DNA from: a virus
DNA: 64,000 nt
Reading direction: 5' to 3' (one strand)
Virus record (IMG/VR): IMGVR_UViG_3300029258_001308
Span: 12,806 to 76,805 of that record
In this document: positions 12,420 to 61,443 of the stretch, piece after piece
Layout of the letters: every line of letters starts with the position of its first letter
Numbering within the stretch: position 1 is the first letter of the stretch
Notes under the pieces: model-generated
Databases searched by the model: none
The model's input: only the letters and a program-made list of their open reading frames with translations
What the model was told of the DNA's origin: nothing
Translations under genes and position numbers: made by a program

Positions 12420-12450
12420 TCCCGCTCCCTAACGATTGGAGGTGAGGAGC

Positions 12451-17860: not shown

Positions 17861-17874
17861 GAAGGAGCAGGAGG

Positions 17875-21459: not shown

Positions 21460-21923
21460 TGGCCTTGAGTCGACCCACGATGGTGTCGGTGTATCTTCGT
21501 TTCGCTCGGATAGTGAGTGAACGCTCTACCTGTGCTCGTCTCAAGGTGGGTGCAGTGATCACTACTTCCGACATGGAACAAGTTCTTGCACTGGGATATA
21601 ATGGGAATGCGAAAGGCTTCCCGAACGAATGCGATTCAGACGAGCCAGGCAAGTGCGGGTGTATCCACGCCGAGGTCAACGCGCTGATCAAGTGTGGGAA
21701 GAAGGACCGCAAGAAGGTGATGTTCGTAACGAACGCCCCATGCGCCCACTGCGCCAAGCTCATCGTGAACTCAGGGTTCTCCCTGGTCCACTACTTGGAC
21801 GACTATCGAAGTTCAGCAGGGCTTCTCATTCTCAAGCAGGCGGGGATCACGGTCAGAAGGTTCGAAGAGGGAATAGTCGAAGATGATAGCTCCGGACCTG
21901 ATAACGGTCGGCCACAAGACTAA
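21459..21923 (+). CDS. dCMP deaminase
   Basis: RSTC.R.KVGAVI, GYNG, HAEVNA, PCAHC. Confidence 0.9.
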   Translation: MALSRPTMVSVYLRFARIVSERSTCARLKVGAVITTSDMEQVLALGYNGNAKGFPNECDSDEPGKCGCIHAEVNALIKCGKKDRKKVMFVTNAPCAHCAKLIVNSGFSLVHYLDDYRSSAGLLILKQAGITVRRFEEGIVEDDSSGPDNGRPQD

Positions 21924-30722: not shown

Positions 30723-31601
30723 TTAGTCGAGGGGTCCCAGGTCCTTCCCCAGGTCCTGGACCTCGTCGAGGGTTGCAGCCACGGTCCCGTGATGTCGGAC
30801 AACAGCGGCCGCTGCGAGGTTGGCGAACTTCACGGCCTCGGGTAGAATGACCCCGCGCTCAAGCTGAACAGCCAGAGCAGCGATCACGGTATCTCCCGCG
30901 CCCGTTACGTCGAACACTTCTACCTGATGACCGGGACAGTGGCCACTCGAGCCCTGGTCATACCAGAAGATGCCGTTGGAGCCGTCGGTCACGATGGCTC
31001 GTGTCTCCCATAACTTGGCCAGAGCCTCGGCGCACTCGTCAGCCCGGGCCATCCGGTAGCGGTGACCGAGCATGACGCGTGCTTCGTGCTTGTTGGGCTT
31101 CAGGTAGGTCAAGCCCTTCAGAGCGGGGGTGATTCGCTTAGGATCAACGATCGTTGGAATCCCTCGGCTCTTTAGGGACTCGATCAGCTCGTCTGTAACT
31201 ATCCCGTGCTGGTAGTCCTGAAGGATCACGAACCTTGTATCTTCGATCAGGTCCTCAGGTATCTCAGTGATGCCCGTGTTCTCTCTGGCCCTGTCGATAC
31301 GACACACTACTTGACGGTCGGCTACTATCCTCTGCTTGACCGTAGTCTGACCGGGGATTCGAGTGAAGTCGCACTTGAGTAAGGACTCGAGTCGGAGCCC
31401 GTCCTCGTCGAGGTCCCAGGCTCCAAGGAGACGTGACTTGCCTCCGAGAGTCCGGACATTCTGAGCCACGTTGGCCGCACCGCCAGCCATGTACTCGTGG
31501 TGCTTTGGATAGAGGACGGGTACGGGAGCCGTGGGCTCCAGCCTTCCCGCCATGTGGTGAGAGAAGATGTCCAGGATAGCATCGCCGATTGTCAGGATCA
31601 T
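30723..31601 (-). CDS. HldE/RfaE-type heptose-7-phosphate kinase (PfkB family), kinase domain only
   Basis: IGDAILD, APVPV, GGAANVAQN, TTVKQR, DY.HG, VDPK, KPNKHE, VFDVTGAGDTV. Confidence 0.85.
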   Translation of the reverse strand: MILTIGDAILDIFSHHMAGRLEPTAPVPVLYPKHHEYMAGGAANVAQNVRTLGGKSRLLGAWDLDEDGLRLESLLKCDFTRIPGQTTVKQRIVADRQVVCRIDRARENTGITEIPEDLIEDTRFVILQDYQHGIVTDELIESLKSRGIPTIVDPKRITPALKGLTYLKPNKHEARVMLGHRYRMARADECAEALAKLWETRAIVTDGSNGIFWYDQGSSGHCPGHQVEVFDVTGAGDTVIAALAVQLERGVILPEAVKFANLAAAAVVRHHGTVAATLDEVQDLGKDLGPLD

Positions 31602-32554
31602 GAGTACGCCCTCAGCATCTGAATGGCCATAAGGAAAACCTGCTCTGGCTCGATCGCGTTGAGAATCGAGCACCCAGACTGACGACACTTGCCAGAAATC
31701 TCTTTGGGAGGAAGCAGCTGACACGGAGGCTTGCAGCCTTCACGATGCTCGGTGATCGGGAAGATGGGATGCGTCTTTCGATACGGGTGACAGGTAACCC
31801 ATCCGTTAGTGGACCCGAATAGAGATAGAGTCGGGACATCCAAGAAAGATGCAAAGTGAAGAAGCCCCGAGTCGGGTGTGATCATGAGCGAGCAGCGTTG
31901 AATAAGAGAGGCCACCTTCGTGAAGGAGAGCCGCATGGCCAACGCTCCGGGGAAGTTCCTTAGACGACGTGGTACATGGTCGAACGAGATGATGTTGAGG
32001 CCGGCCTTGTCGAGAAGCTCGGCCAGCTTCCTCCACTTCTCCGGCGGCCAATTCCTGAGAGGATCGGTTGAGTACGGTTCGAGCCCTACGACGATGCCGT
32101 GCGTGTTGACCCAGTTACCGTCGAGCCAGCCTTGAGCCCAGTTCTTCTCGGCCTCGGTTACCCGATAGCAGTCGACCACAAGGGGAACGTCGTAGATGTC
32201 CGAGGCCTCACAGAAACATCTGATCCTTGACTTGTGTCGTTTCTCTCGGAACTCCTTCTCATGTGCCCAGCCGGGACAGTACAGGGAATAGGTGGCGTCG
32301 GCATCATCGGTCTCTTTGAGGTATGGGTATCGCTCGGAGTCGAACGGTCCGTCCTGGGGGCGGCGACGATGGATCGAGGTCTCTGACCAACGATCTACGT
32401 ACGGGCAGTGCTCGACGAGTTCTCGGTAGGTCCGGATGCCGACGTACGTGATCTCGACATCAGGCTGTCTAAGCTTCCAGCCCTTGGCCACCGGGAGTGT
32501 GCAGAGAACGTCGCCTAACCCGCCGGCTTCTCTGAGGAGTCGCACCTTGTACAA
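31598..32554 (-). CDS. Glycosyltransferase family 9 (heptosyltransferase-like)
   Basis: GGLGDVL, RNWP, ITPDSGLLHFA...LFGST, C-terminal Cys cluster. Confidence 0.85.
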   Translation of the reverse strand: MYKVRLLREAGGLGDVLCTLPVAKGWKLRQPDVEITYVGIRTYRELVEHCPYVDRWSETSIHRRRPQDGPFDSERYPYLKETDDADATYSLYCPGWAHEKEFREKRHKSRIRCFCEASDIYDVPLVVDCYRVTEAEKNWAQGWLDGNWVNTHGIVVGLEPYSTDPLRNWPPEKWRKLAELLDKAGLNIISFDHVPRRLRNFPGALAMRLSFTKVASLIQRCSLMITPDSGLLHFASFLDVPTLSLFGSTNGWVTCHPYRKTHPIFPITEHREGCKPPCQLLPPKEISGKCRQSGCSILNAIEPEQVFLMAIQMLRAYS

Positions 32555-33951: not shown

Positions 33952-33987
33952 TGTTCTACTCTCCTTTCTTTCTCAACGCCTCTTTAG

Positions 33988-43284: not shown

Positions 43285-43923
43285 CTATACAATCCCCAGT
43301 TGTGGGACGTCGTTGTGGTAGTTGGCGAGGAGACGGTCCACCGCTTTGTTCCCGGTCGTCCCCCCTGTTTCTGTCCCGCCAGATTCCTCGAGAGTGAACG
43401 AGAAGTCGCCAAGCTTCGCCGACTTGATGTCACCCTCGGTCGAGATACCCTCTGTGATGTCGTCCATCTTCTGAGCCGCCAAGATGGCGCAAGCCTTCGC
43501 GATGTTTCGGGGAGTCTTTTTCCATCCCCACTTCCCGGTGATCTGGACGTTCTGATTACCCTTGGGCCAGATCGGAGCATCGTCTCCCCACCGAGCACTT
43601 GCTCGCAGAGAGATGTCGTACTCGAGCGTGACCCTTCGTTCGTAGACCTTGTAGTCGCTAGAGTCTACGTCAGTGGTCGAGCCATCGGCCGGGTCCACGA
43701 TCACGATGGATGTGATCTCGAGACACCTCAGCAGAGTGAGCTCCGGGAACAGAATGTCCGAGTGCCCAGTCCCATCGAAGTTGAAGGTCTTGTCGTCAGG
43801 CTCGAAGTGATCATCGCACTCTTCGTCGATCATCTCCATGGCCTCACGGATGGCTTGCTCGAACTCCTTGTTTGTCTCACCAGAGTCGTGAAACTTTCGT
43901 ACGTCTGCTATTCGGCAGTACAT
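43285..43923 (-). CDS. Head-tail adaptor
   Basis: MYC.IADV, IDEEC...F, WPKG.QNV.ITG.WGW..TP..I..AC. Confidence 0.75.
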   Translation of the reverse strand: MYCRIADVRKFHDSGETNKEFEQAIREAMEMIDEECDDHFEPDDKTFNFDGTGHSDILFPELTLLRCLEITSIVIVDPADGSTTDVDSSDYKVYERRVTLEYDISLRASARWGDDAPIWPKGNQNVQITGKWGWKKTPRNIAKACAILAAQKMDDITEGISTEGDIKSAKLGDFSFTLEESGGTETGGTTGNKAVDRLLANYHNDVPQLGIV

Positions 43924-44960
43924 GGGACGCCCTCCATGATCTCCACTACCGCGTCAGCCACCTGCTCCGGAGTGATGAGCTCGTAGCAGGGGGTGTCCCG
44001 AAAGCACTTCTTCCTGTAGCATCCAAGGCAGTCAGAGTCGGGAACTAGCTTGACGCCTCGGCCATACATATCGATGTCGTCGGCTGGAGTAGAACCGAAG
44101 ATGGTCACGACTCTTCGTCTCAGAGCAATACCCAAGTGCATGCCGAACGAATCCATCGTGACCACGCAAGAGCATGAGGCCACCCAGCCAACGTAGTCCA
44201 TGATCGATCGTCTCTGTTCTTGCATCTCCGGCTTGTAACCTCGCTCCTTCAGGAGCTCAGCTAACTTCTCCCAGCCTTTCCACTTCTTGAAGAATCGATC
44301 TCCGGCCATGTAGTTCAGGCCGACCTTGCCAATTTCCTCCTTGGCCTTGAAGCCCGTGAAGAACGGGTAGTCGTCAGGCTCCTCTACTCCTATCATCTTA
44401 GCACAGAGCTGCTGGTAGGTCAAGCAGCTCAGTCTCTTGGCTTCGTCGTCGATGCCGAGCTGGAAGGCCTCGCGAGCAGAGTCGGACATGGCGGCGGTGT
44501 TCCCGTACTGATCCATGCCGAACCCGTATCTCTCCTCGGCCTCGACAGCCACGGCTATGGCCGTACTCTCAGGCTCCTTATCCAAGCAGATCACGGCCTG
44601 GAACTTCATGACCATGATCGAGACCTGGCTCTTCCAGTTGTAGGGAATCAGCTTGTCAATCCCCTTGATTCTTCGCAGAATCTGAAACCCTTCGTCTGAG
44701 GTCAGCCATGTGATGTGGCAGTCGCTCCCGTACTTGGCCCTGATCGGACCAAGCAGAGAGGCGGTTCTGACCACATCCCCCATGGCGGCAAGCTTGATAA
44801 GCAGGACTCGAGTTCGAGTCGGCCTATAGTGCTTGCATCCTAGGCATCTCTGCCCGAACTTCTTGTGGGGCCAGCAAGGCTTGAACCCCTTGAAGTAGCG
44901 GCAGTCCGTGAGGATGCCCTCGAACTTGGCAACGTCTGCTAGTCGTCTACCGGTACCCAT
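43908..44960 (-). CDS. Glycosyltransferase family 9
   Basis: DCRYF.G.KPC, LIKLAAMGDVVRT, VTMDSFGMHL...IFGST, CLGCY..C. Confidence 0.85.
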   Translation of the reverse strand: MGTGRRLADVAKFEGILTDCRYFKGFKPCWPHKKFGQRCLGCKHYRPTRTRVLLIKLAAMGDVVRTASLLGPIRAKYGSDCHITWLTSDEGFQILRRIKGIDKLIPYNWKSQVSIMVMKFQAVICLDKEPESTAIAVAVEAEERYGFGMDQYGNTAAMSDSAREAFQLGIDDEAKRLSCLTYQQLCAKMIGVEEPDDYPFFTGFKAKEEIGKVGLNYMAGDRFFKKWKGWEKLAELLKERGYKPEMQEQRRSIMDYVGWVASCSCVVTMDSFGMHLGIALRRRVVTIFGSTPADDIDMYGRGVKLVPDSDCLGCYRKKCFRDTPCYELITPEQVADAVVEIMEGVPCTAE

Positions 44961-45778
44961 CTGTCTGGATTAGTCTCCATCCAAGCCCGAAGGCGCCCTT
45001 GGAACTTCTCCTCGTCCTGCAGCTGAAGCTGCCGACGCTGCTGGGAGTGCAGAGGATTAGCCGAGTCTCGAGACCCGCCACCCTCGGCCTCCATGTGCCA
45101 CGACCTGACCCAAGGAAGATACAGACATTTGAACCCGGCGAAGTAGAGCCGGAGTGAAACGTCTGTCTCCTCCCGATGGCCCAGGTTTGTACACCATGTA
45201 GCGAACCCGCCCACGTCTTGGAGAGCCTGCTTCCAGTAGATGAACCCGCCGTGCATGTGGCAAACTTCGATGGGCTCATTGTGGTCGATCCAGTGCTGCT
45301 GCATATCGTAGGGCTCGAGGATCATCCCCGTCTCGATCTTCTTCCGGGCAAACCCGTTCTGACTGGGACCCTGATTCAGTATTCTCCCACGATGCGCGTT
45401 GAGGAGACATCCTCCAGCCGCTGCCACCTCTGTCCTGTCCTGATCCACGATGAAGTCGTGCAGAAGCTGGATATAGTCGCGAGGAACAACTATATCATCC
45501 TCGTGACGGATGCAGAGCTCGGCCTGGGCCGCCTCCATGGACTGCTGATAGGCGAAGGGTATTCCTTCGTTGGTACCACGAACCACGTTCACCCTGACCC
45601 CGTCATCCTCCAACATCCTGATCAGCAGTCTGATATGGTAGTGCGAGAGCACGTCGGGGTCCGAGTCGTCAACGATGACCAGCTCCCAGTCCTTGTGGGT
45701 CTGGAAGACAAGGCTAGCCAGAGCGGCGGACAAGTAGTTCGGCCGATTGCGAGTGATGATATGGAAGGACACTCTCAT
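44939..45778 (-). CDS. Glycosyltransferase family 2
   Basis: VS.HIITRNR, LVIVDDS, HEDD, GGF, EETD. Confidence 0.85.
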   Translation of the reverse strand: MRVSFHIITRNRPNYLSAALASLVFQTHKDWELVIVDDSDPDVLSHYHIRLLIRMLEDDGVRVNVVRGTNEGIPFAYQQSMEAAQAELCIRHEDDIVVPRDYIQLLHDFIVDQDRTEVAAAGGCLLNAHRGRILNQGPSQNGFARKKIETGMILEPYDMQQHWIDHNEPIEVCHMHGGFIYWKQALQDVGGFATWCTNLGHREETDVSLRLYFAGFKCLYLPWVRSWHMEAEGGGSRDSANPLHSQQRRQLQLQDEEKFQGRLRAWMETNPDRWVPVDD

Positions 45779-45780
45779 AG

Positions 45781-46380
45781 CTAGCTCCTTGTCACTGCGA
45801 TTAGGATGAAGTCCTTACCCTTGGTATACTTCACCCTGTTGACCTCGAAGTCGTTGGGAACTCCCTCGAAGAGTCTCTTCACGGACTCCTCTGTTACATG
45901 CCATTCGTGCGAAGGGTTGTCAACCATGGCCGGATCGTACCCCTCCTTCGCGAATGGCATCGTGATGACAACCTTCTTAGAGGCTACCCGAATAGCCTCG
46001 AAGACAACCTGTCTAGCATCCTCGATCGAGATGTGCTCCAGCATCTCGGCGATGACCACGGTGTCGAACTCCTCGTGATGGAAGGGAAGCCCAAAGGTGA
46101 CGTCCATACAGAAGTACTTGCAGTCAGGGTATCTGAGCTTGGCTGCTCTGAGTCTCTCTCGATCAATGTCAACACCGACCCGAACTCCCGCCAACCTTCC
46201 TAAGATGTAGCCCTCTGCACAGCCGAGATCGAGTATCGACCCCTCTGCTTTTCGGATGATCCAGTTGACCCTTTCCCTCTGGGCCTCTGATATATAGCCA
46301 CCATCATCCGACGGAGGCTGACGAATCTCGTCCAGCCTGGCAACATCAAGGTGGACCCGATAGTCTTCCGCGTCACTCAC
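45781..46380 (-). CDS. Class I SAM-dependent methyltransferase
   Basis: ILDLGCAEG, VGVDI, LPF...FDTV..EMLEHI. Confidence 0.9.
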   Translation of the reverse strand: MSDAEDYRVHLDVARLDEIRQPPSDDGGYISEAQRERVNWIIRKAEGSILDLGCAEGYILGRLAGVRVGVDIDRERLRAAKLRYPDCKYFCMDVTFGLPFHHEEFDTVVIAEMLEHISIEDARQVVFEAIRVASKKVVITMPFAKEGYDPAMVDNPSHEWHVTEESVKRLFEGVPNDFEVNRVKYTKGKDFILIAVTRS

Positions 46381-47678
46381 TTGTGTCTTCCCTCATCTCG
46401 CATATAGTCCATCAGCCTCTTGCGGGCCTGGACTAAGGCGGGGACGTCCATCTCGGGAGTCCTAGCCGCGAAGCCTTCGTTCGTATCCTCCCAACCCAGA
46501 AGCCAGTATCGAGACCAGTCCCTTGAAAAGATCTCGATCTCGAACTCCTCGGGATGATCGTAGATGGGAGAGCCAGGATATGGCTGGAACGTCGAGAGCG
46601 TGCAGCGATCAGGCTGAACCCTCTCGATGAAGTCTACCGTATCCTGGACCGAGCTCGGAGATTCTCCCGGAAGCCCGATGATGAAGTAAGCTTTTGAGAC
46701 CATGCCGACTTCCTTAGTCCATGCGATGGCCTGCTCAGCTTGCTCTATCGAGACACCCTTCCGGATATGATTGAGAATCCGCTGCGACCCGGACTCCACT
46801 CCGAACGCCACCTCCACGCAACCCGCATCACGGAGGGTGACGAGATTCGGTCGGGTGGTAAGATCGCATCTCAAATGCGTTCTGAACTTCAGCTCCGTCT
46901 TCCGGAACTGGTCGCAGATCGCCGTCAATCTCTCGGGCTTGAGTCCGATGATCTCGTCGACAAGTCGCACTTCTGTCACACCAAGTATCTTCTTCATCAG
47001 CCGCAGCTCTTCGTATACCCACTCGGCAGAGTGGAGCCTGACCTTCCCCTCCCAGGTCGCATTGGAACAGAAGGCACAGCGATACGGACAGCCACGAGAT
47101 GTGGAGATACATGAGGCTCGCTCTCCTTCTTCTACGAGTTCATAGGAGACAGCCGAGTCTTCAGCGATGTCCTGCCAAGCGAGGTGCGGAAGTGAGTCAA
47201 GCTCCTTGATGCTCTCCCGCTTCGTGTTGACATAGATCGCTCCCCATCCATCCTTGTAAGCCAAGCCATCGATCACGTCCAATGGCTTCCCGGCTACTAT
47301 CTCGGACAAGGTCTTCTCGCCTTCTCCGAAGACGGCGTAGTCGAAGTCGGTCTTGAGGAGAGTATCCTTCGCAAGCACTGAGGCGTGCGCCCCTCCTATG
47401 ATTCGATAAGCCGAGGAACGATGCTCCTTCAGCCAGGTGGCCACTCGGGCCGCGTAACCCATGTCCCCGGTGGTGGCCGAGACACCGAAGTAGTGAGCCT
47501 CGGGAATGACGTCACCCCACTGCTCCTCGGTGTATCTTCCTGACAGATCAACGATGCTGACTTCGCAGTCAACGGTCCGTCTGAGATACGCAGCTAGAGC
47601 GAGAAGACCTAGAGGAGCCTGGAGCCGCTCGTTCCAAAGCATCTTGTTGGGAAGCCTGATGAGAGCTACTTGATTCAT
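46377..47678 (-). CDS. Cobalamin-binding radical SAM enzyme (class B methyltransferase-like)
   Basis: PLGL..LA, IGGAHAS, GEGE, TSRGCPYRCAFC, GVESGS, FIIGLPGE. Confidence 0.9.
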   Translation of the reverse strand: MNQVALIRLPNKMLWNERLQAPLGLLALAAYLRRTVDCEVSIVDLSGRYTEEQWGDVIPEAHYFGVSATTGDMGYAARVATWLKEHRSSAYRIIGGAHASVLAKDTLLKTDFDYAVFGEGEKTLSEIVAGKPLDVIDGLAYKDGWGAIYVNTKRESIKELDSLPHLAWQDIAEDSAVSYELVEEGERASCISTSRGCPYRCAFCSNATWEGKVRLHSAEWVYEELRLMKKILGVTEVRLVDEIIGLKPERLTAICDQFRKTELKFRTHLRCDLTTRPNLVTLRDAGCVEVAFGVESGSQRILNHIRKGVSIEQAEQAIAWTKEVGMVSKAYFIIGLPGESPSSVQDTVDFIERVQPDRCTLSTFQPYPGSPIYDHPEEFEIEIFSRDWSRYWLLGWEDTNEGFAARTPEMDVPALVQARKRLMDYMRDEGRHK

Positions 47679-49846
47679 CACGGTAGCTCTCCCCTCAGAG
47701 CCTCGATGACCCGCTCCGAAGTGATGGCCTTCATGCAAACCTTACCTTGCCCACGGATACATCGAGTCAGCCAGTCGCTGGCTTCCCACCAGCAGGGAGG
47801 ACACACATGTGCATTGATGTTGATGTTGTCCAAGTACCCGAAGACTCGCTCGTCGGTGGGACCGAAAAGAACCAGGCTCCGGGTATGCACGGCCCTGGCC
47901 AAGTGGACCAGCCCACCCTCCGGGCCCATGTGAAGCCTAGCTCCCTCCAGTACTCCCGCCAACTCGTCGACTCTGAACTTGCCTAGCATCGGCTCAGCCA
48001 ACGGAAGCTTAGACTCCCCAGACCGGCCGACCTGGACAACGTTGAAGCCTTGATCCTTGACGAACCCAATGACCTCGGCCCATCGCTCAGGCTCCCATAC
48101 TTTTACTGTCTCCCCTTCGTTCGAGGAGTTGTTCACGGTGACATAGGGCTGAAGCTTCTCGAGTGGCTTCCTCTTCTTGCCTTGAACGTCCCCCAACTTC
48201 CAGGACAGCCGAAGATCGTCGCCGCCTAGCGGGACACCCAACATTCTCGCGGCAAACTCGGTGATGTGAAGCCCAGAGAGGCCGATACAGTGATACCGCA
48301 TCGGACGACCTACAGACTCAAGCAACTTCCAGTATCCCTCATAGAAAGGAGAGAGGAAGGAGCCAAGCATCTCCACGGCCTTGTCGGAGAAGAGAATCTC
48401 GGGAGTGCAGAGACAATCCATGTAGATGTCGTAATCGCGACCATACCTCTGCCGGGCTGCGCTGTTGTCGACAGCGATCTGACGAACAGAATCTACAGTG
48501 TTGTCCTTGGCGAACAAGTCTCGATGCTGCCCGATGTTCAACTCAACGAAGGCCTGAGGGTAGGCTCGCTTAGCTGCTTTCGCAATCCCGAAAGAGATCA
48601 GCGTATCTCCCAATCCCGCTACCTCAGTGATCCCTATCTTGAGCCCGGTCCCCGTTCGATCACTGGCCTCAGCCACCGCGATGGGTCTTCGAGGTGGAGA
48701 CTTGGACCGGGTCATAAGCTCGAGATTCGGGACCTCCATGATTCGAGGATCATCGAGAAGACGGAGAACAGACTGGAAGGCCAGGTGGGCCGAGATCTTC
48801 CCGACACAGTCGTGGCCAAGCCGACAGTCGTCTCGATGCGTGAAGCAAGGAGCGCAAGGAAGGTCTGTTTCAAGAGCTATGAAGCCAGACTCATGAGTGA
48901 CCCGAAGCCGAGCGGGAAAAGGACCGTACAGACCCACTGCGGGGACACCCAGTGCAGAGGCCACCTGTATGAACCCTGAGTCGGGGCCGACTAGACAGCT
49001 AGACCTTTCGATGATCGCTGCGGCCTGAGCTGGGGTTGTCTTCCCCGTCAAGTTGATACAGTCGGGCACATCCTTGAGATGTTTCTCAAGAGCGACGCAC
49101 GTATAGCCCTTCTCGTTCAACTTCTTGATCAACTGCTTGCAATGCCTGAAGGGCCACGAACGAGCTGAAGACGATGCCGCAAGATGGACGGCGATGATCT
49201 TCTCGCGAGGTACATCCACCAACTGCTTATCTGCCCAAGCCCTGGCCGACTCTGATACGAAGACATCAGGGTTCCGATCACTCGGGGCTTCTATCCCGAG
49301 CCAGTCGGCATAGCAGTCGACCATGTGAAGTTGGTCGGCGTTTGGGTTGTTCTCGACTGCGCCGGCCAGGTCGATGGTGAAGTCGAACTCGTCGGTGTGC
49401 GCTAGCGCTGTCCGTGAGGACAGAACCTTATTGACGTACCTGAATCGAAGGAACGAGTGCCACTCCTGGAATGCAGCCAAGCTGATCGAGAGAGTGGGAA
49501 ACCTCTTCTTCAGATCCCTCATCAGTGGAGTTAGGAGAAGTATGTCCCCTATCCCACCATGGCGAATCAGGAGGAGAGCCTTCCCATTGAGATCAGCCGG
49601 GAGGACGTCTACGGGTGGACGGTCCTTGATTCGAATTCCACGACGCTCTAGCTGAAGAACGTCGTCGTGGGTCGCGTCAAGGAGAGTGAAGCTCGGCTTA
49701 CCCTTACCGTCTTTCTGATTGAGTAGGTATTCCGAGTCGCGATCATCCGCTATCTGGCGGACCTCGCCCTTCTTCACGGAGAACTTGTTCCGTGAGAAGG
49801 GCAAGGTCGTTGCCAGCGAAAGACCATCATATCTGAGGGTCTTCAT
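47678..49846 (-). CDS. Tandem double GT9 glycosyltransferase with a short N-terminal extra domain
   Basis: GGIGDIL...GPDSGFIQVA..LYGP and AGLGDTL...GPEGGLVHLA..LFGPT. Confidence 0.85.
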   Translation of the reverse strand: MKTLRYDGLSLATTLPFSRNKFSVKKGEVRQIADDRDSEYLLNQKDGKGKPSFTLLDATHDDVLQLERRGIRIKDRPPVDVLPADLNGKALLLIRHGGIGDILLLTPLMRDLKKRFPTLSISLAAFQEWHSFLRFRYVNKVLSSRTALAHTDEFDFTIDLAGAVENNPNADQLHMVDCYADWLGIEAPSDRNPDVFVSESARAWADKQLVDVPREKIIAVHLAASSSARSWPFRHCKQLIKKLNEKGYTCVALEKHLKDVPDCINLTGKTTPAQAAAIIERSSCLVGPDSGFIQVASALGVPAVGLYGPFPARLRVTHESGFIALETDLPCAPCFTHRDDCRLGHDCVGKISAHLAFQSVLRLLDDPRIMEVPNLELMTRSKSPPRRPIAVAEASDRTGTGLKIGITEVAGLGDTLISFGIAKAAKRAYPQAFVELNIGQHRDLFAKDNTVDSVRQIAVDNSAARQRYGRDYDIYMDCLCTPEILFSDKAVEMLGSFLSPFYEGYWKLLESVGRPMRYHCIGLSGLHITEFAARMLGVPLGGDDLRLSWKLGDVQGKKRKPLEKLQPYVTVNNSSNEGETVKVWEPERWAEVIGFVKDQGFNVVQVGRSGESKLPLAEPMLGKFRVDELAGVLEGARLHMGPEGGLVHLARAVHTRSLVLFGPTDERVFGYLDNININAHVCPPCWWEASDWLTRCIRGQGKVCMKAITSERVIEALRGELP

Positions 49847-49878: not shown

Positions 49879-50865
49879 TTACGAGTAATCGGAGCCGGAG
49901 AGGCTGAGCTGTTTCGCGAGCACGATCGCGTCCGTGTTCTCGATGACGTAGTCGTTCTCGTGATAAGTGGTGCACTCCCACTTATCCGTCCTGGGCTTGA
50001 ACTCCCAGTAGACGTCGAACTGCCTGAGCGGTACGTAGATGAACTGCATGGTGTTGCACAGCCAGACGAACGAGAGATCGGTGTACGCCGTGGTGCCGAT
50101 GGTGGCCTCCAGATCCTCGGGGATCAGGGGAACCTCCACCAGCTCGATGCCGAACGGGCGCAGAGGCACTGACCTCTGGTGGGCTGCGTCGCCCAACGCC
50201 GTCGCTCTCCCGGACACCGCGTTCGCGTAGTGCTGGTAGACCTTCGGTGAAGCAAGGAACTTCCAGTTTGCGCGATCCATGGAGTACTTGGAGGGCATGG
50301 CATCGATCATGTCCGAGAACAGCTTCTGCGAGACGTGAGCACCGGCGGCGTCGACCTCGTGAGCCACGCCCAGAGTCTGCTTGTACCAACCGTTGTTCCT
50401 CTTGAGCAGTCGGTCCAAGGCAGTGGTACCAGTTATGGTCTCATCGCCCTGGATGCCCAGAAGTTCAAGGTCAGTCGACATCCTCTTGGCGAATGACTTG
50501 TAGAGGCTCTGCCTCCAGCCCTCTCGCTCTATGTTGCGCTCGAGAGCCTCCTTGGTCAGATCGAAAGCGGACCTCAGCTTCTTCACAACGAACTCGACCT
50601 TCGAAAGCGTCGGCTCGTAGAGGTTGCCGGAGTCTGCGTTCTCATCGGCCGACTCCGTTACCGGAGCGCCGATGTTCATCAGGTCGACTTCCCCCTTGTG
50701 AACGTCCATCTTCTCGGTTCTGACCATCTTCATGAGGCGGGTCTCATCGACCGTGAGATCGATGAACTTGTCGGCCTGATAGCCGAGAAGCTCACCACCG
50801 GACGCCAGGTCCGTTGAGTCGATGGCCTTCATGATCTCTTCCTGAGTCTTAGGCAATTGTATCAC
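49879..50865 (-). CDS. Major capsid protein
   Basis: Follows protease/scaffold; GGELL..QADKFID, E.NIE..., DLELL.I.GD; GGGAGGTGAT RBS. Confidence 0.9.
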   Translation of the reverse strand: MIQLPKTQEEIMKAIDSTDLASGGELLGYQADKFIDLTVDETRLMKMVRTEKMDVHKGEVDLMNIGAPVTESADENADSGNLYEPTLSKVEFVVKKLRSAFDLTKEALERNIEREGWRQSLYKSFAKRMSTDLELLGIQGDETITGTTALDRLLKRNNGWYKQTLGVAHEVDAAGAHVSQKLFSDMIDAMPSKYSMDRANWKFLASPKVYQHYANAVSGRATALGDAAHQRSVPLRPFGIELVEVPLIPEDLEATIGTTAYTDLSFVWLCNTMQFIYVPLRQFDVYWEFKPRTDKWECTTYHENDYVIENTDAIVLAKQLSLSGSDYS

Positions 50866-52260: not shown

Positions 52261-54753
52261 TTATTGTTCAAGCTCTTGGCCATCTACCGTCTTCTCGATA
52301 GGTGGCTTTACGTCAAGGACATCCTTCATTTTCTTCCTGAGCTCCGCTCTGAGCTTGAGGGCCTCGGCTCGATTCTTGGTCCAATACCTGAGCTCAGTAG
52401 GCACCTGCTTCCGCAGGTATCGCGGGAGCGCTGAATACCCCTTCGGGGGTAGCCATCCCTTCTTCTCGGCCTCGTTGGAAAGGACGTAGGGCTCCTGCTC
52501 CTTCGGAAAGATGACCTGCCAAGTAAGGGCCTCACGTCGAGGCTTCCCTCCCTCGGTATAAGAATGCGGGGGACGGAGTATGATCCTCTTCTCCACCTCC
52601 ACAAGTTCAGAGCCACCGGCCACCGGGAGCATGACCCCCTCGGCTAAGCGAGCAAGAATCCAATCCACGATGGCTTGCTCGTCGTACTCCTCTTCGATAT
52701 CCTTCCTCCGACTCTGAAGGAGCCTGAAGATCACCCGTCTCTTCAGACCGTTGCCATCGAAGAAGTACTCGTGAAGCCACGGCTTCTGAGCCCCGAACTC
52801 CACCTCACCTCTGTCTACTATGGAGAAGACGCCGGGGAAGTTCTTGGTGGCCCCCGGTCCGGGTTTTTCGGGGTCACCTATCGGTATCACTCCCTCCAGA
52901 TCGAGCCACTCGTTGGGAATACGAGGCTTTGTCTCTGACAGGAGGTTGATGTTCACAAGAGCTCCGCTCGGGGTCTTCCGCTTGAGGACTGTGCCGTTCT
53001 TCCAGTTGACCTTGAAGTTGTCGCCTCTATCGGCGGCCTTGGCTGCGGCCAGAGTCTCGACCGGTTCCTTGATCTTGCCTGCCAATGCATCGTTGATGGT
53101 CCAGCCCGTCAGAGATCGCCGGGCCTTACCTTGCATCCTCAGGTCGGCATGGACGCTCTTCCCTCGATAGTGATGCTGAACCGAGTAACGATGAGTCTTG
53201 TCTTCGGAAGGAATCTCCATGTAAGGGTCGGCCTGTTTGAGAACGTCATCCTGAGCCAAGCCTTCGCTCTTACCCTTTATGATCTCGGCCGTCATCTCGT
53301 CGATACTCGCGTCCTCTTCGGCTGTCTGCTCGATCTGCTTGGCCGTCTCGTCGTTGGTCTCGGCGTCGGCCTCATCGACGCTCATCTGGACAACGTTCAT
53401 CTCGTCACGGGCCGTGAAGGCCAGATCGGCCAACGGAACATAAGAGGTGAACGGGCCACCCAGCTCATCGTAGAGGAAATGGAATCTGGGCCACATCTTC
53501 TTCGGGAACTGTCGATAGATGCGGAACTCCAGCGGCTTCTTGATCCGTTCTGGAGTGTCGACCGGGAGCTTGATCAGAACATCAATGTCTCCCTCAGTTT
53601 CTCCTTGTGTCACCACTCCACCCACCAAGCAGACAAGCGGGTTGACCAGCTGTGCACCCTTGAAGTCGTCGACGATGTCCTTCAGCTTGACGATTGAGCC
53701 ATAGTTCTCCTGCTCCCCGTGATTGACCGTGGCCAGGTCCCCCGCATCCTTCTTGGAATAGTAGATAGGGTCAAGATAGAGGAAGTCGCTGAAAGGAGCG
53801 ATCTTGCCGTGGTCCTTCTTGACCGCTCTCGGCTTTCCGAACCCCACCACTGTACCGCCGTCAACATCCTCGATCTTCACGATCTCAGCACGATACTTGA
53901 GAGCATCGTCTATGACAAACCAGATCGAACTCCCGATGCGAGATTCGTATGGATGCTCGCTCAGAACCACCGATCCGGCCTTGACCCGCAGAACCGGAAC
54001 CCAGTTCTTCCACTCGTTCTTGGCCACCCTGACCATGATGTCGGGGTGCTCGGCCTCTATGGGAACTCTGTTCCTCCAGTCGACAAGTGGCTTGTCCATC
54101 ATCTCGTTCGGGACGGGGCCGGCAAAGCTCTGACCTCTCTTCTTCTTGTCCTTCTTGGGCGGCTTCGTAACCTTCATCTTCTGAGGTGGTAGGAAGACCT
54201 TCTCCACGACCACGGGGTAGAACTTGAAGACCTCCGCCTTCGGCCACCACTTGGCCCTGGTCTTGTCAGTGATGCGGTGCTGAGAGCGAAGCTTCTCGAA
54301 TTCAGCGAGGTTGATATCACGACCCTCCCCGAATCGAATCACGCCAAGAACCTTACCCCTCTCCACGAGGAAGTGAGGACGATCCTCATCGCCGGGAAGA
54401 GAACGTGTTCTGACCACGCCTGTCTTCAATCCGGAAGCAACTTGGCGACCGTGCGGACTGACAAGCTCGATCTTGGGAAGCTTGCGCTGCTCGGACCCAA
54501 GCAGGTCCATGGCCAGCTTGTCAAAGCGATTCTGCGGATTGTGCTTCTGACCTCGCTTCCGCATCTCGGCTATGACGCGACCATGGTAAAGGAGAATCTG
54601 GTCACGTGACCAGTCTCCCCACTTCTTTTTCTCTTGGAACTTGCGCCAAGCTGTGTGAGAATAGAAGTGGGCGGCAGTCAGCTGTCGATCAGTCAGCTTT
54701 CCTAGGTTCTCGCCGCGAACCATGTCTTTCCGATCTGTGTCAAGATTAGACAT
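52261..54753 (-). CDS. Multidomain protein: ASCH/PUA-like, Pol-beta nucleotidyltransferase-like and LigD phosphoesterase-like domains
   Basis: LVSPHG..VASG.KT; VCLVGG.....EGDIDVLI; YSVQHHYRG.SVHADLR...WLDLEGVIP...IVDRG. Confidence 0.6.
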   Translation of the reverse strand: MSNLDTDRKDMVRGENLGKLTDRQLTAAHFYSHTAWRKFQEKKKWGDWSRDQILLYHGRVIAEMRKRGQKHNPQNRFDKLAMDLLGSEQRKLPKIELVSPHGRQVASGLKTGVVRTRSLPGDEDRPHFLVERGKVLGVIRFGEGRDINLAEFEKLRSQHRITDKTRAKWWPKAEVFKFYPVVVEKVFLPPQKMKVTKPPKKDKKKRGQSFAGPVPNEMMDKPLVDWRNRVPIEAEHPDIMVRVAKNEWKNWVPVLRVKAGSVVLSEHPYESRIGSSIWFVIDDALKYRAEIVKIEDVDGGTVVGFGKPRAVKKDHGKIAPFSDFLYLDPIYYSKKDAGDLATVNHGEQENYGSIVKLKDIVDDFKGAQLVNPLVCLVGGVVTQGETEGDIDVLIKLPVDTPERIKKPLEFRIYRQFPKKMWPRFHFLYDELGGPFTSYVPLADLAFTARDEMNVVQMSVDEADAETNDETAKQIEQTAEEDASIDEMTAEIIKGKSEGLAQDDVLKQADPYMEIPSEDKTHRYSVQHHYRGKSVHADLRMQGKARRSLTGWTINDALAGKIKEPVETLAAAKAADRGDNFKVNWKNGTVLKRKTPSGALVNINLLSETKPRIPNEWLDLEGVIPIGDPEKPGPGATKNFPGVFSIVDRGEVEFGAQKPWLHEYFFDGNGLKRRVIFRLLQSRRKDIEEEYDEQAIVDWILARLAEGVMLPVAGGSELVEVEKRIILRPPHSYTEGGKPRREALTWQVIFPKEQEPYVLSNEAEKKGWLPPKGYSALPRYLRKQVPTELRYWTKNRAEALKLRAELRKKMKDVLDVKPPIEKTVDGQELEQ

Positions 54754-55090
54754 TGACCTTTGACCTCGCAGACTTGTCCACACGAATTTCCTCAACCTCG
54801 AAGTCGGGTTCACTGGACAGCTCGCTTGAAACATAGGTCCAAGCTTCGTAGTCTCGTAGGGGGACTAACACAGGACCCTCACTGATCTTTCCATTTTTTC
54901 TTCGCTCGCCCACCATGTTATGGAATGAATGCTCATCGAACCTCTTAAGTAACTCGGCTAGCCGTCTACTAGTGAGACTCCTGATCTCAAGCTTCTTTCC
55001 AGGTCGATACACTAGAGTGCCAGCTGGTTTTCCCTTGTATTCTACTTTTAGTATCCAGGTTGGATTTGCAGTAGCCATCAGTCCACCCAT
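54746..55090 (-). CDS. Hypothetical protein (possible immunity partner of the MuF toxin domain)
   Basis: Overlaps both neighbours; AT-richer. Confidence 0.5.
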   Translation of the reverse strand: MGGLMATANPTWILKVEYKGKPAGTLVYRPGKKLEIRSLTSRRLAELLKRFDEHSFHNMVGERRKNGKISEGPVLVPLRDYEAWTYVSSELSSEPDFEVEEIRVDKSARSKVNV

Positions 55091-58791: not shown

Positions 58792-59295
58792 TCAGCCTCC
58801 GACCTTGGCGTTCCCGATGACACGCGCCAACAGCTTGTTGAGTCCTGCCCGGCCCATCTCGACCACCAGCTTCTTGGCCGGGTCCTTCGCCTTCTCGAGT
58901 ACGCGTTCCCAGGTGTCGTTCTGCAAGTTCTCGATCTCGTCCTTGGTGAGCTTGCCGTCCTCGGCGGCGGTCTTCATGCCGCGCACCTTCTCGACGTAAA
59001 GCTCTTCGGCCACGTTCTCCAGTACCTCGATCACTTCGATCTTGGCGTTCTGCAGGGCGGTCTCTCTTGGACCGTCAATCAATTTGTACTTGGCCTTGGC
59101 CAAGCCCCACAGAGTGATGACCAAGCCGATGAGCGCCTCGGCGATCACGGGTATGTACTTCACCCAGAACGCCTCGACTACTACCTCAGGCTCGGTCACG
59201 ACCGGAGTCGCAACCTCCTCTCCCATTGCCACTCCCGCGAACGTCATCATCGCAACGACGATCAGGAGCGCCCAGCTAACCCATCGACTTCTCAT
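58792..59295 (-). CDS. Holin-like membrane protein
   Basis: Signal-like N-terminus, second TM, DGKLTKDE helical C-terminus. Confidence 0.5.
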   Translation of the reverse strand: MRSRWVSWALLIVVAMMTFAGVAMGEEVATPVVTEPEVVVEAFWVKYIPVIAEALIGLVITLWGLAKAKYKLIDGPRETALQNAKIEVIEVLENVAEELYVEKVRGMKTAAEDGKLTKDEIENLQNDTWERVLEKAKDPAKKLVVEMGRAGLNKLLARVIGNAKVGG

Positions 59296-61442: not shown

Positions 61443-61443
61443 C

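What the first reader, a model, noticed from the sequence alone, without database searches (positions are those of the whole stretch)
43908..49846. Glycosylation/methylation cassette inserted between major capsid and head-tail adaptor
Seen: five overlapping or abutting genes (double GT9, B12 radical SAM, SAM methyltransferase, GT2, GT9) start 32 nt after the capsid gene and overlap the adaptor gene. Known: GT9 enzymes use ADP-heptose in LPS core synthesis, class B radical SAM enzymes methylate unactivated carbons, and virion glycosylation is described for some mycobacteriophages. Inference: late-expressed machinery builds a heptose-containing, methylated glycan on the virion, perhaps masking the capsid from defence sensors or mimicking LPS. 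Alternative targets are modified cytosine in DNA or host LPS (superinfection exclusion).
Basis: partly seen in the sequence, partly recalled or inferred. Interest (0 to 1): 0.82.

Follow-up and report, generated by a model that had tools for sequence, protein, structure and literature searches.

The report
Phage capsid sugar-coating gene cassette
An uncultured marine-sediment phage carries, wedged between its capsid and neck genes, five intact sugar-adding and sugar-tailoring enzymes that most likely decorate its own particle with a methylated heptose-type glycan, which would extend virion glycosylation well beyond the mycobacteriophages where it was proven.

Summary
On the minus strand, the major capsid gene is followed after 32 nt by a tandem GT9, a B12-binding radical SAM enzyme, a SAM methyltransferase, a GT2 and another GT9. 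All are tightly packed, and the last overlaps the head-tail adaptor gene by 16 nt.

All catalytic motifs are intact and none of the enzymes has a membrane segment. Cultured relatives have only one small gene at this site.

Related cassettes sit inside virion modules of very different phages:
- after the capsid gene (GT9~methyltransferase fusions);
- after the portal gene (GT9, rSAM~MT fusion, GT2, in the same order as here);
- between neck and sheath genes.

A phage-specific N-terminal domain of the tandem GT9 is predicted to dock on the capsid protein (ipSAE 0.63, best control 0.00). A heptose-7-phosphate kinase and a fourth GT9 close the late operon.

Best reading (about 0.6): cytoplasmic glycosylation of the capsid or other virion proteins. 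It resembles mycobacteriophage Corndog but is not homologous to it.

The main rival is DNA glycosylation, because the phage has a dCMP-type thymidylate-synthase homologue. However, only 1 of 10 near-complete genomes carrying this GT9 has any TS gene.

This scan has noted capsid-linked GT9s on other DNA before. No sugar has been observed.

The parts
49879..50865 (-). Major capsid protein (328 aa), the presumed acceptor or docking partner. It ends in a short extra tail, ...SLSGSDYS.
   Evidence: phrog_1623 3e-68 and PF05065. About 32% identity to annotated MCPs of Streptomyces phages. The C-terminus is 4-5 residues longer than in relatives. Predicted interface residues are 141-143, 158, 162-176, 185, 189, 256-257 and 311-312.
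49583..49846 (-). N-terminal ~88-residue beta-rich extension of the tandem GT9. It is a hallmark of the phage GT9 family and the predicted capsid-docking domain.
   Evidence: All 29 family members carry 60-140 residues before the catalytic GG.GD motif. The extension is predicted as beta strands with low confidence on its own. Residues 8-17, 36, 40, 44-49 and 52 form the whole predicted interface with the MCP (ipSAE 0.63, best control 0.00).
48731..49582 (-). GT9 domain 1 of the 722-aa protein (residues ~89-372)
   Evidence: PF01075. AF2 model aligned to the GT9 structures 3tov (Z 27.3), WaaF (24.4), TibC (22.2) and WaaC (21.9); other GT-B folds reach 14 or less. Invariant G97, G100, D101, D289, C331 and C334.
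47681..48643 (-). GT9 domain 2 (residues ~402-722), the homologue of the GT9 half of GT9~methyltransferase fusions that follow the MCP gene in other phages
   Evidence: Second PF01075 stretch. 28-32% identity to L025/L027/L081. The GLGD and PEGGLVH motifs are present.
46377..47678 (-). B12-binding radical SAM enzyme (433 aa from the ATG that overlaps the GT9 stop; the ORF is open to a TTG at 47738). Presumed radical tailoring of a sugar.
   Evidence: PF04055 plus PF02310 over cut-off. CPYRCAFC motif. Best named relatives are HpnJ 3e-46 and PhpK 2e-41, all below the equivalog cut-offs. PDB AprD4 3e-17. Relatives are fused to GT2 or to SAM-MT.
45781..46380 (-). Class I SAM-dependent methyltransferase (199 aa)
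   Evidence: Methyltransf_25/11. Weak MftM-like hit (oligosaccharide methyltransferase). LDLGCAEG motif. 37% identical to the MT half of the rSAM~MT fusion in L096.
44939..45778 (-). GT2 (GT-A fold) glycosyltransferase (279 aa)
   Evidence: PF00535. DDSD and EDD motifs. 39% identical to the GT2 of L096, which sits in the same relative position.
43908..44960 (-). Third GT9 domain (350 aa), with a Cys-rich N-terminal extension; overlaps the adaptor gene
   Evidence: PF01075 32 bits against a cut-off of 22. TIGR02193 N-terminal and TIGR02195 C-terminal partial hits. AMGD and DSFGMH motifs.
43285..43923 (-). Head-tail adaptor; marks the downstream border of the insertion
   Evidence: phrog_442 6.8e-20. 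In Vibrio phage R21Y and Streptomyces phage Squillium the adaptor follows the MCP after a single small ORF.
31598..32554 (-). Fourth GT9 (318 aa) at the end of the late operon
   Evidence: PF01075 62 bits.
30723..31724 (-). [quoted passage not shown]
   Evidence: TIGR02198 3.7e-62 (210 bits, below the equivalog cut-off of 345), PfkB 1.8e-33. GAGD motif. Homologues lie beside GT9 in L043 and upstream of the portal gene in L034.

Best explanation
The cassette is a late-expressed, cytoplasmic virion-glycosylation system.

Inferred: the host supplies most of the ADP-heptose pathway, and the phage adds a heptose-7-phosphate kinase.

Predicted: the tandem GT9 docks on the major capsid protein through its phage-specific N-terminal domain. 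Together with the GT2 and the third GT9, it then builds a short oligosaccharide on the capsid protein. A possible acceptor is the extra C-terminal ...GSDYS tail, and other virion proteins may also be modified.

Inferred: the SAM methyltransferase and the B12-radical SAM enzyme tailor the sugars, by O-methylation and by C-methylation or another radical step.

Shown here: gene content, intact motifs, soluble enzymes, operon embedding, recurrence of the same enzyme set inside virion modules of unrelated phages, and domain fusions that link the enzymes to each other.

Inferred only: donor sugar, acceptor residue, glycan structure and biological benefit (particle stability, adhesion or shielding).
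For: 1. Operon embedding. The five genes are packed at +32/-1/-4/+2/-22/-16 nt between MCP and adaptor, with no terminator-like site. Cultured relatives have only one small ORF at this position.

2. Recurrence of the placement.
- Six viral loci plus the 91-kb metagenome contig L081 have portal-MuF-protease-MCP followed by a GT9~MT fusion, then GT2, several MTs and an epimerase. Their MCPs are only about 26% identical to this one.
- L096 has portal, GT9, an rSAM~MT fusion and GT2 in our gene order at 37-41% identity.
- L034, a myovirus type, has the GT9 between Neck1 and the sheath gene.

3. Fusions link the enzymes functionally: GT9~MT, rSAM~MT, and rSAM~GT2 and rSAM~MT.

4. Complex prediction, GT9 residues 1-400 with the MCP. 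ipSAE was 0.63 (runs 0.63, 0.65, 0.62) against a best control of 0.00. The runs agree in at least 60% of contacts, and the partner's pLDDT is at least 74. That mark was reached by 58 of 80 solved complexes and 2 of 110 mismatched pairs. The interface is formed only by the family-specific N-terminal domain.

5. Precedent. Corndog has portal-MT-GT-GT-GT-...-MCP, and gp38 is essential for capsid glycosylation (PMC12363180). Che8 and Corndog capsid and tail proteins end in GS or DS.

6. The same genome places another protein-modifying enzyme (rSAM/SPASM) directly after a tail protein that carries a 21-Cys CxxxC island.

7. A heptose-7-P kinase is encoded, and the GT9 fold is confirmed.

8. All enzymes lack membrane segments.

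9. TS genes occur in only 1 of 10 near-complete GT9-bearing phage genomes, and Tet_JBP in 0 of 41 records.
Against: - No glycan has been observed, and no RNA or proteome data exist.
- The MCP has no Ser/Thr-rich acceptor tract. Its C-terminal extension is only 4-5 residues.
- The docking result is a model's own confidence, obtained with my own shallow MCP alignment (5 rows). The N-terminal domain folds with low confidence on its own. The tool's authors report that 7 of 44 blindly picked neighbours also pass.
- One clade of the same GT9~MT family lies in replication modules, between DnaB and primase. Some rSAM relatives lie beside nucleotide-metabolism or replication genes (Streptomyces phage SF3; L099 and L102).
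- This phage has a dCMP-type TS homologue, so a DNA acceptor is possible.
- There is no sequence homology to the proven mycobacteriophage enzymes.
Confidence: 0.6

Rival explanations
1. DNA hypermodification. The phage replaces or modifies cytosine through its dCMP-type thymidylate-synthase homologue. One or more of the GTs then glycosylate 5-hydroxymethylcytosine in replicated DNA before packaging, with heptose and further sugars, and the methylation enzymes tailor the DNA-linked glycan.
For: - Window 20707-21459 is a TS-family protein (PF00303, 2e-11). It carries Asp where dUMP-specific enzymes have Asn (RSCDLLIHFPVD). It lies next to an all-alpha dNTPase, a UDG-superfamily protein and a dCMP deaminase, and the contig also holds an ordinary ThyA.
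- Phage GT-B enzymes are known to put mono- and di-heptose on 5hmC, helped by a phage sugar kinase and a nucleotidyltransferase. Such clusters were also found near structural genes (bioRxiv 10.1101/2023.12.21.572611).
- A clade of the same GT9~MT family sits between DnaB and primase genes.
Against: - The cassette lies 23 kb from the nucleotide module and is translationally coupled into the head-neck operon.
- Among GT9-bearing phage records, only 11 of 40 hold any TS gene (1 of 10 near-complete ones). The eight that could be aligned have Asn. Tet_JBP was found in 0 of 41, although that search also found nothing in its control genomes.
- The GT9 N-terminal domain is predicted to dock on the MCP.
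- The closest syntenic relatives sit after portal or MCP genes.
Confidence: 0.15
2. Host envelope remodelling. The GT9, GT2 and tailoring enzymes act on the host's lipid A-core or another cytoplasmic-face glycolipid. This would change the receptor, giving superinfection exclusion or preventing progeny from being trapped on debris.
For: The best sequence and structural relatives with known function are the LPS heptosyltransferases WaaC and WaaF. A heptose kinase is encoded. Phage seroconversion glycosyltransferases are an established kind of system (own knowledge).
Against: - All NCBIfam LPS equivalog scores are far below cut-off (78 against 185 bits, and similar).
- No syntenic or closely related host LPS operon exists among genomes of 185,579 species; the best match is 32% identical.
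- No integrase was seen among the ORFs scanned, and the phage has its own replication machinery.
- The genes are co-transcribed with late head genes, too late for LPS export to matter.
- The family carries an extra N-terminal domain that LPS enzymes lack, and this domain is predicted to bind the MCP.
Confidence: 0.08
3. A moron-like biosynthetic island unrelated to the virion. The enzymes would make or modify a soluble glycoconjugate or glycosylated peptide, or a host protein, and merely ride in the late operon.
For: - Relatives of the B12-rSAM are very common in viral contigs, with at least 467 matches, in varied contexts. 38 of the best 80 loci show no recognisable glyco-gene homologue nearby.
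- In large low-GC phages the GT9 lies in big glyco-islands whose neighbours I could not identify.
Against: The cassette has no promoter or terminator of its own and is translationally coupled to its neighbours. The enzyme set recurs at three different positions inside head or neck modules. The GT9 is predicted to dock on the MCP.
Confidence: 0.07

Closest known systems
Mycobacteriophage virion glycosylation (Corndog gp35-38, Che8 gp108-110; Freeman et al. 2023, Cell Host Microbe 31:1216). I could not read the paper here and know it through PMC12363180, PMC11256854 and my own knowledge.
   Same: A phage-encoded methyltransferase plus several glycosyltransferases sit inside the head-gene block (Corndog: portal-MT-GT-GT-GT-...-MCP). 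The enzymes are soluble and cytoplasmic. The capsid protein ends in a short tail with a terminal Ser.
   Different: - There is no detectable sequence similarity.
- The enzyme families differ: GT9 with a capsid-docking N-domain, a B12-radical SAM enzyme and a heptose kinase, against small GT-A enzymes.
- The insertion point is after the MCP rather than after the portal.
- The host is not an actinobacterium. The habitat is marine sediment and seawater, and the two radical SAM enzymes suggest low-oxygen conditions.
LPS inner-core heptosyltransferases WaaC/WaaF (GT9; PDB 2h1h, 1psw) and Veillonella GT9 (3tov)
   Same: The GT-B/GT9 fold (Z 22-27), the catalytic Asp in the N-terminal GD motif and the D-S-G..H nucleotide-sugar motif.
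   Different: Scores are far below the equivalog cut-offs. There is an extra 60-140-residue N-terminal domain and a conserved CxxC..H motif. The protein is a tandem duplication, and the gene context is phage head genes rather than an LPS operon.
Bacterial autotransporter heptosyltransferases TibC/Aah (BAHT; PDB 4rap, 4rb4)
   Same: GT9-related enzymes that O-heptosylate a protein in the cytoplasm using ADP-heptose, with an N-terminal extra domain and a Cys-based metal finger. This shows that protein acceptors lie within the family's range. Structural Z is 22.2.
   Different: TIGR04414 scores only 40 bits against a cut-off of 200. The structural match is not better than to the LPS enzymes. Dodecamer formation and iron binding were not tested.
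Phage DNA glycosylation systems (T4 alpha/beta-GT; metagenomic 5hmC glycan clusters, bioRxiv 10.1101/2023.12.21.572611)
   Same: GT-B fold enzymes, heptose as a possible sugar, a phage-encoded sugar-activating kinase, and a phage genome with a cytosine-modifying TS homologue.
   Different: Those GTs cluster with the base-modifying enzymes. Here the cassette is inside the head operon, 23 kb away. The GT9 family does not co-occur with TS or TET genes in most complete genomes.

Membership tests
Glycosyltransferase family 9 (PF01075) | Pfam model matched above the gathering score | tested here: met
   722-aa protein: 107.3 bits in two stretches. 350-aa protein: 32.4 bits. 318-aa protein: 62.2 bits. 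The cut-off is 22.
Glycosyltransferase family 9 (PF01075) | GT-B fold closest to solved GT9 structures | tested here: met
   Domain 1 model: 3tov Z 27.3 (rmsd 2.7, 280 aligned), 1psw Z 24.4, 4rap Z 22.2, 2h1h Z 21.9. The next GT-B folds reach Z 14 or less. Domains 2 and 3 were not modelled.
Glycosyltransferase family 9 (PF01075) | Catalytic Asp in the N-terminal G-D motif and the D/E-x-G..H donor-binding motif | tested here: met
   The four GD motifs are GGIGD101, GLGD414, AMGD62 and GLGD15. The donor motifs are PDSGFIQ, PEGGLVH, MDSFGMH and PDSGLLH. D101 and D289 are invariant in 29 sequences.
Glycosyltransferase family 9 (PF01075) | ADP-heptose as donor | not testable with these tools
   Indirect evidence only: the phage encodes an HldA/RfaE-domain-I type kinase.
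LPS heptosyltransferase I/II/III equivalogs (TIGR02193/02195/02201) | Score above NCBIfam's curated cut-off | tested here: not met
   78, 71 and 74 bits against cut-offs of 185, 135 and 170.
BAHT protein heptosyltransferases (TibC/Aah, TIGR04414) | Score above the curated cut-off | tested here: not met
   40.4 bits against a cut-off of 200.
BAHT protein heptosyltransferases (TibC/Aah, TIGR04414) | N-terminal extra domain plus Cys metal finger; protein acceptor | tested here: inconclusive
   An N-terminal beta-rich extension and an invariant C331/C334 with near-invariant H337 are present. Their equivalence to TibC's barrel and iron finger is not shown. TibC's Z of 22.2 is no higher than for the LPS enzymes.
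Class B (cobalamin-binding) radical SAM enzymes | CxxxCxxC cluster motif, radical SAM core and N-terminal B12-binding domain | tested here: met
   CPYRCAFC. PF04055 75.9 bits and PF02310 44.1 bits, both over cut-off.
Class B (cobalamin-binding) radical SAM enzymes | Methyl transfer to an unactivated carbon | not testable with these tools
   The nearest named families are HpnJ, PhpK, ApyD and BchE, all far below their cut-offs. The best PDB match is the diol dehydratase AprD4. The chemistry is therefore open.
Mycobacteriophage-type virion glycosylation system | Phage-encoded GTs (and an MT) placed with the head genes | tested here: met
   compared with the Corndog map.
Mycobacteriophage-type virion glycosylation system | Homology to Corndog gp35-38 | tested here: not met
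   BLASTP E-values of 0.06 or higher. The resemblance is one of function and layout, not descent.
Mycobacteriophage-type virion glycosylation system | Acceptor at the C-terminus of capsid and tail-tube subunits | tested here: inconclusive
   Che8 and Corndog capsid and tail proteins end in ...GS or ...DS. This MCP ends in ...SGSDYS, 4-5 residues beyond its relatives. The candidate tail proteins do not end this way.
Mycobacteriophage-type virion glycosylation system | Glycan demonstrated on virion proteins | not testable with these tools
   The phage is uncultured, and no proteome or RNA data exist.
Phage DNA glycosylation (hmC-type) | Enzyme that makes a hydroxymethyl- or otherwise activated pyrimidine | tested here: met
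   A TS homologue carries Asp at the Asn177-equivalent position. Its product is unknown.
Phage DNA glycosylation (hmC-type) | GT clustered or co-occurring with the base-modifying genes | tested here: not met
   The genes are 23 kb apart in different operons. A TS gene is present in 1 of 10 near-complete GT9-bearing genomes, and Tet_JBP in 0 of 41 records.
Seroconverting / LPS-modifying phage GTs | Temperate phage, lysogeny-module placement, membrane-bound Gtr-type enzymes | tested here: not met
   No integrase was seen among the ORFs scanned. No enzyme has a membrane segment (maximum KD19 of 1.56 or less). The genes lie in the late operon.

The most novel reading that the evidence does not exclude
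A large, so far undescribed family of phage GT9 enzymes carries a dedicated capsid-docking N-terminal domain. With modular partner sets (SAM-MT, B12-radical SAM, GT2, sugar epimerases, heptose kinase), these enzymes would build methylated, possibly C-methylated, heptose-containing glycans on capsids of sipho-, myo- and other phages of Gram-negative and anaerobic hosts. Virion glycosylation would then be a general phage trait rather than an actinophage curiosity. It would also be a possible way to hide capsid proteins from capsid-sensing defence systems.
Probability: 0.35. Interest if true: 0.85.

Novelty: new variant of a known kind. Interest (0 to 1): 0.7.

Why it matters
Glycosylated phage particles have been proven only for a few mycobacteriophages. 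As I recall it, that study saw little sign of virion glycosylation in the broader phage population.

This locus and its relatives suggest otherwise. Environmental phages of quite different hosts appear to wire a different enzyme set into their head operons: heptosyltransferase-family enzymes with a capsid-binding domain, radical SAM and SAM methyl-tailoring enzymes, and a heptose kinase.

If true, this has several consequences:
- It changes how virion surfaces are viewed, in terms of stability, adhesion, recognition by defence systems and antibody shielding in therapy.
- It gives a new protein-acting branch of GT9.
- It offers a rare case of a B12-radical SAM enzyme acting on a protein-linked glycan.
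- The predicted docking domain makes the question directly testable with recombinant proteins, without cultivating the phage.

Tried and rejected
- blastn of the region against 50,697 phage records: no match.
- Single-protein scans of viral contigs with the tandem GT9 and with the MCP: no relatives. Alignment-based scans were needed.
I could not inspect the 72%-identical homologue P0003, the contigs of P0004-P0007, or the rSAM homologues P0010 and P0012.
- The Freeman et al. 2023 paper is not held.
- Corndog gp35-38 against our MT and GT2: no similarity.
- Alignment A3 was too diverse for a genome-contig scan.
- PDB sequence searches for the neighbours c9 and c11 in the low-GC jumbo-phage group and for L096:11149-12702 gave nothing. 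Those contexts stay unassigned.
- ESM Atlas search with the N-terminal 88 residues: no usable hit.
- An HMM of the MCP family found no hit in L096-L108. The L096 MCP was assigned only through a weak PDB 3bjq hit.
- Metagenome records (L081, L083, L091) cannot be searched whole. I could not test whether the group-B phages have TS genes.
- The look-up of sequencing runs listed no RNA holder, so no expression data exist either way.
The immediate neighbours in several loci were therefore typed only by similarity to proteins already typed.
- MCP Ser/Thr-rich tracts as acceptor: none found.
- The Tet_JBP search found nothing anywhere, including in the controls, so it is weak negative evidence only.

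Full report
**What is there**

The window is bases 12806-76805 of a 76.8-kb linear IMG/VR viral contig, estimated 71% complete. The DNA occurs in sediment and seawater metagenomes from six studies.

The plus-strand half encodes a replication and nucleotide module: SNF2 helicase, PD-(D/E)XK nuclease, primase-MCM helicase, dNTPase, UDG-like protein, TS-like protein, dCMP deaminase and Pol A.

The minus-strand half is a late operon, in this order:
- a beta-helix protein and a 729-aa protein;
- portal, a MuF fusion and an 857-aa unknown protein;
- prohead protease and the MCP;
- the five-gene cassette;
- adaptor, Hc1 and a gp10-like protein;
- tape measure and a 1304-aa tail protein;
- rSAM/SPASM enzyme, GT9 and heptose-7-P kinase.

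The finding's coordinates and gene list are exact. The junctions are +32, -1, -4, +2, -22 and -16 nt. There is no terminator-like site on the coding strand until after the kinase, and GC content does not deviate.

All catalytic signatures are intact: four GT9 GD motifs and their donor motifs, the GT2 DxD, the MT motif I, the rSAM CxxxCxxC and the kinase GAGD. No enzyme has a membrane segment.

**The cassette is an insertion into a conserved head-neck order**

The MCP belongs to phrog_1623 and is about 32% identical to annotated MCPs of large Streptomyces siphophages. It is 26-28% identical to those of Vibrio and Rhodobacter phages. In Vibrio phage R21Y and Streptomyces phage Squillium the order is protease, MCP, one small ORF, adaptor. 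The 6-kb enzyme block is therefore additional.

**Relatives and their contexts**

The tandem GT9 has few close relatives: one at 72% identity and the rest at 32% or less. An alignment-based scan nevertheless found 45 viral loci spanning 23-63% GC.

Five contexts emerged.

1. Group B: six viral loci, plus metagenome contigs that include the 91-kb contig behind L081. The order is portal, MuF, protease, an unknown protein, MCP (26% identical to ours), then a 578-585-aa GT9~methyltransferase fusion homologous to our second GT9 domain. After it come GT2, three methyltransferases, another GT2 and a UDP-sugar 4-epimerase-like SDR.

2. L034, a myovirus type. The order is MCP, adaptor (the same PHROG as ours), Neck1, GT9, tail sheath. 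A kinase homologue lies upstream of its portal gene.

3. High-GC group A. The GT9 closes an operon of giant virion-type proteins, within a few kb of the major head gene.

4. Group C. The GT9~MT fusion lies between DnaB and primase.

5. Large low-GC phages. The GT9 lies in glyco-islands with GT1, a GT-D-like enzyme and a B12-rSAM. I could not identify the flanking genes.

The B12-rSAM has 647 homologues in the protein collection. Some are fused to GT2 or to class I methyltransferases. It has at least 467 matches in viral contigs. Of the best 80 loci, 42 carry recognisable glyco, MT or epimerase homologues within 8 kb, and only 3 carry replication-gene homologues.

The closest of these loci, L096 (GC 41%), has portal (PDB portal hits, 7.6e-12), GT9, an rSAM~MT fusion (41% and 37% identity), a small ORF and GT2 (39% identity). 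That is our gene order, but inserted after the portal gene, which is the Corndog position.

The enzyme set is therefore a mobile functional unit. Three kinds of domain fusion tie its members together. It has been placed independently at three or more different positions inside virion-morphogenesis modules.

**What kind of enzymes they are**

An AF2 model of GT9 residues 1-400 (mean pLDDT 76) aligns best with solved GT9 structures: 3tov Z 27.3, WaaF 24.4, TibC 22.2 and WaaC 21.9. Other GT-B folds reach Z 14 or less. All LPS and TibC equivalog scores are far below cut-off.

Every member of the phage family carries 60-140 extra N-terminal residues before the catalytic GD motif, plus an invariant CxxC motif. 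On its own, the extension is predicted as beta strands with low confidence.

The kinase matches the RfaE-domain-I (HldA) family at 3.7e-62. This makes ADP-heptose the likely donor. GmhA, GmhB and the adenylyltransferase were not found, so they would have to come from the host.

The rSAM's nearest named relatives are HpnJ, PhpK, ApyD, BchE and structurally AprD4. Several of these act on sugars, but not all are methylases. 'C-methylation' therefore remains a hypothesis.

**The acceptor**

- The score was ipSAE 0.63 (runs 0.63, 0.65, 0.62), against a best control of 0.00.
- The runs agree in at least 60% of contacts, and the partner's pLDDT is at least 74.
- The mark used was reached by 58 of 80 solved complexes and by 2 of 110 mismatched pairs. 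My own alignments were used, so these counts hold only roughly.
- The confident interface consists solely of the N-terminal extension (residues 8-17, 36, 40, 44-49, 52). It pairs with MCP residues 162-176 and neighbouring elements.

No like complex is known to me, so a pass from memory is unlikely. It remains a model's own confidence and not a measurement.

It fits the idea that the family-specific domain is a capsid-docking module that holds the enzyme on its substrate.

The MCP has no Ser/Thr-rich tract. It does end in SGSDYS, 4-5 residues beyond its relatives. Che8 and Corndog capsid and tail-tube proteins end in GS or DS. To my knowledge, their glycans are attached at the C-terminus (Freeman et al. 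2023; not readable here).

The same genome offers a parallel case. An rSAM/SPASM maturase (SCIFF/PapB-like, 2.5e-55) directly follows a tail protein that holds a 21-Cys CxxxC island at residues 991-1091. This phage thus places protein-modifying enzymes beside their presumed structural substrates.

**The rivals**

DNA glycosylation is the serious rival.
- Window 20707-21459 is a TS-family protein with Asp at the position that sets dCMP rather than dUMP specificity.
- An ordinary ThyA also exists elsewhere on the contig.
- Heptosylated 5hmC made by phage GT-B enzymes is documented.

Against this reading:
- The cassette is 23 kb away, inside the late head operon.
- Only 11 of 40 GT9-bearing records hold any TS gene, and only 1 of the 10 that are at least 90% complete. 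The eight that could be aligned are of the Asn type.
- No record holds a Tet_JBP gene. This is weak evidence, because that search also found nothing in its control genomes.
- The GT9 is predicted to dock on the MCP.

Group C's replication-module placement and the nucleotide-gene neighbours of some rSAM relatives keep this rival alive, at about 0.15.

LPS remodelling is unlikely, at about 0.08. The enzymes are soluble and fall below the equivalog scores. They are expressed late, no integrase was found, and there is no related host operon. The scan of 185,579 species genomes gave 13 loci, the best 32% identical, none syntenic.

An unrelated moron island is possible but is disfavoured by the translational coupling and by the recurrent virion-module placement.

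**Comparison and novelty**

The closest known system in function and layout is mycobacteriophage virion glycosylation. Corndog has portal-MT-GT-GT-GT-...-MCP, and gp38 is essential for capsid glycosylation (PMC12363180).

There is no homology to it. The enzyme families, the sugar, the host type and the habitat all differ. I therefore class this as a new variant of a known kind.

This scan has already noted capsid-linked GT9 enzymes, some 'behind a small head-gene-associated domain', on other DNA. Those notes are unchecked leads and not independent support, but they agree with the family-wide N-terminal domain seen here.

Specific to this locus:
- the conserved GT9-rSAM-MT-GT2 unit with its fusions;
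- the heptose kinase;
- the co-existing dCMP-type TS;
- the first in-silico link between the N-terminal domain and the capsid protein.

**Verdict**

Best explanation: a virion, probably capsid, glycosylation system (confidence 0.6). No glycan has been seen, and the decisive tests are recombinant and straightforward.

Noticed in passing
window 32515-37902 (-): The 1304-aa tail protein has a 21-Cys island at residues 991-1091 (CLTACETECQTGCESVCE...: Cys every fourth residue, mostly followed by Glu). The next gene is a radical SAM/SPASM peptide maturase (SCIFF-type 2.5e-55, PapB-type 9e-50). This suggests ranthipeptide-like thioether stapling of a virion protein.
   Followed up: partly
window 17297-21923 (+) and contig 12218-13159: A nucleotide-modification cluster: a DUF1599-like protein, an all-alpha dNTPase (dUTPase_2), two unassigned ~280-300-aa proteins, a UDG-superfamily protein, a TS homologue with Asp instead of Asn (dCMP-type) and a dCMP deaminase. 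A separate ordinary ThyA also exists. The phage DNA probably carries a modified cytosine.
   Followed up: partly
window 55078-56913 (-): The MuF-like head protein is fused to a C-terminal zincin-type metallopeptidase-like region. The hits to ATLF and Peptidase_M90 are weak and below cut-off.
   Followed up: no
window 52261-54834 (-): An 857-aa protein with no family match lies between the MuF and prohead protease genes. A weak homologue lies near a B12-rSAM in L103.
   Followed up: no
window 59292-63957 (-): Two large proteins lie upstream of the portal gene. One has a right-handed beta-helix (PF13229) and one has weak, sub-threshold matches to Ig-like domains (bMG3, SdrD). They may be fibres or spikes, and a beta-helix would be a TibC-style heptosylation acceptor.
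   Followed up: no
window 10260-11141 (+): A phage-encoded protein with a response-regulator receiver domain, located in the early/replication region.
   Followed up: no
L096:6548-8605; L025:9833-11569; L033:9812-11527; P0026: Domain fusions in other phages and metagenomes: B12-rSAM~SAM-MT (685 aa), GT9~SAM-MT (571-585 aa, in two separate clades) and B12-rSAM~GT2 (666 aa).
   Followed up: partly
L009 (Caulobacter phage CcrColossus 98832-103385): In phiCbK-like jumbo phages, a block of a sialyltransferase-like enzyme, an NDP-sugar transferase, a methyltransferase and a GT9 directly follows a large tail protein gene and precedes the lysis genes. This echoes the second cassette here.
   Followed up: no
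L008 (Streptomyces phage SF3 26181-27680): A B12-binding radical SAM gene, 28% identical to ours, lies next to thymidylate kinase and a NUDIX hydrolase rather than next to glycosyltransferases.
   Followed up: no
L080 (Woesearchaeota MAG contig): The best match to the 350-aa GT9 (31% identity over residues 51-339) lies on an archaeal MAG contig, with a GT2 homologue 2 kb away.
   Followed up: no
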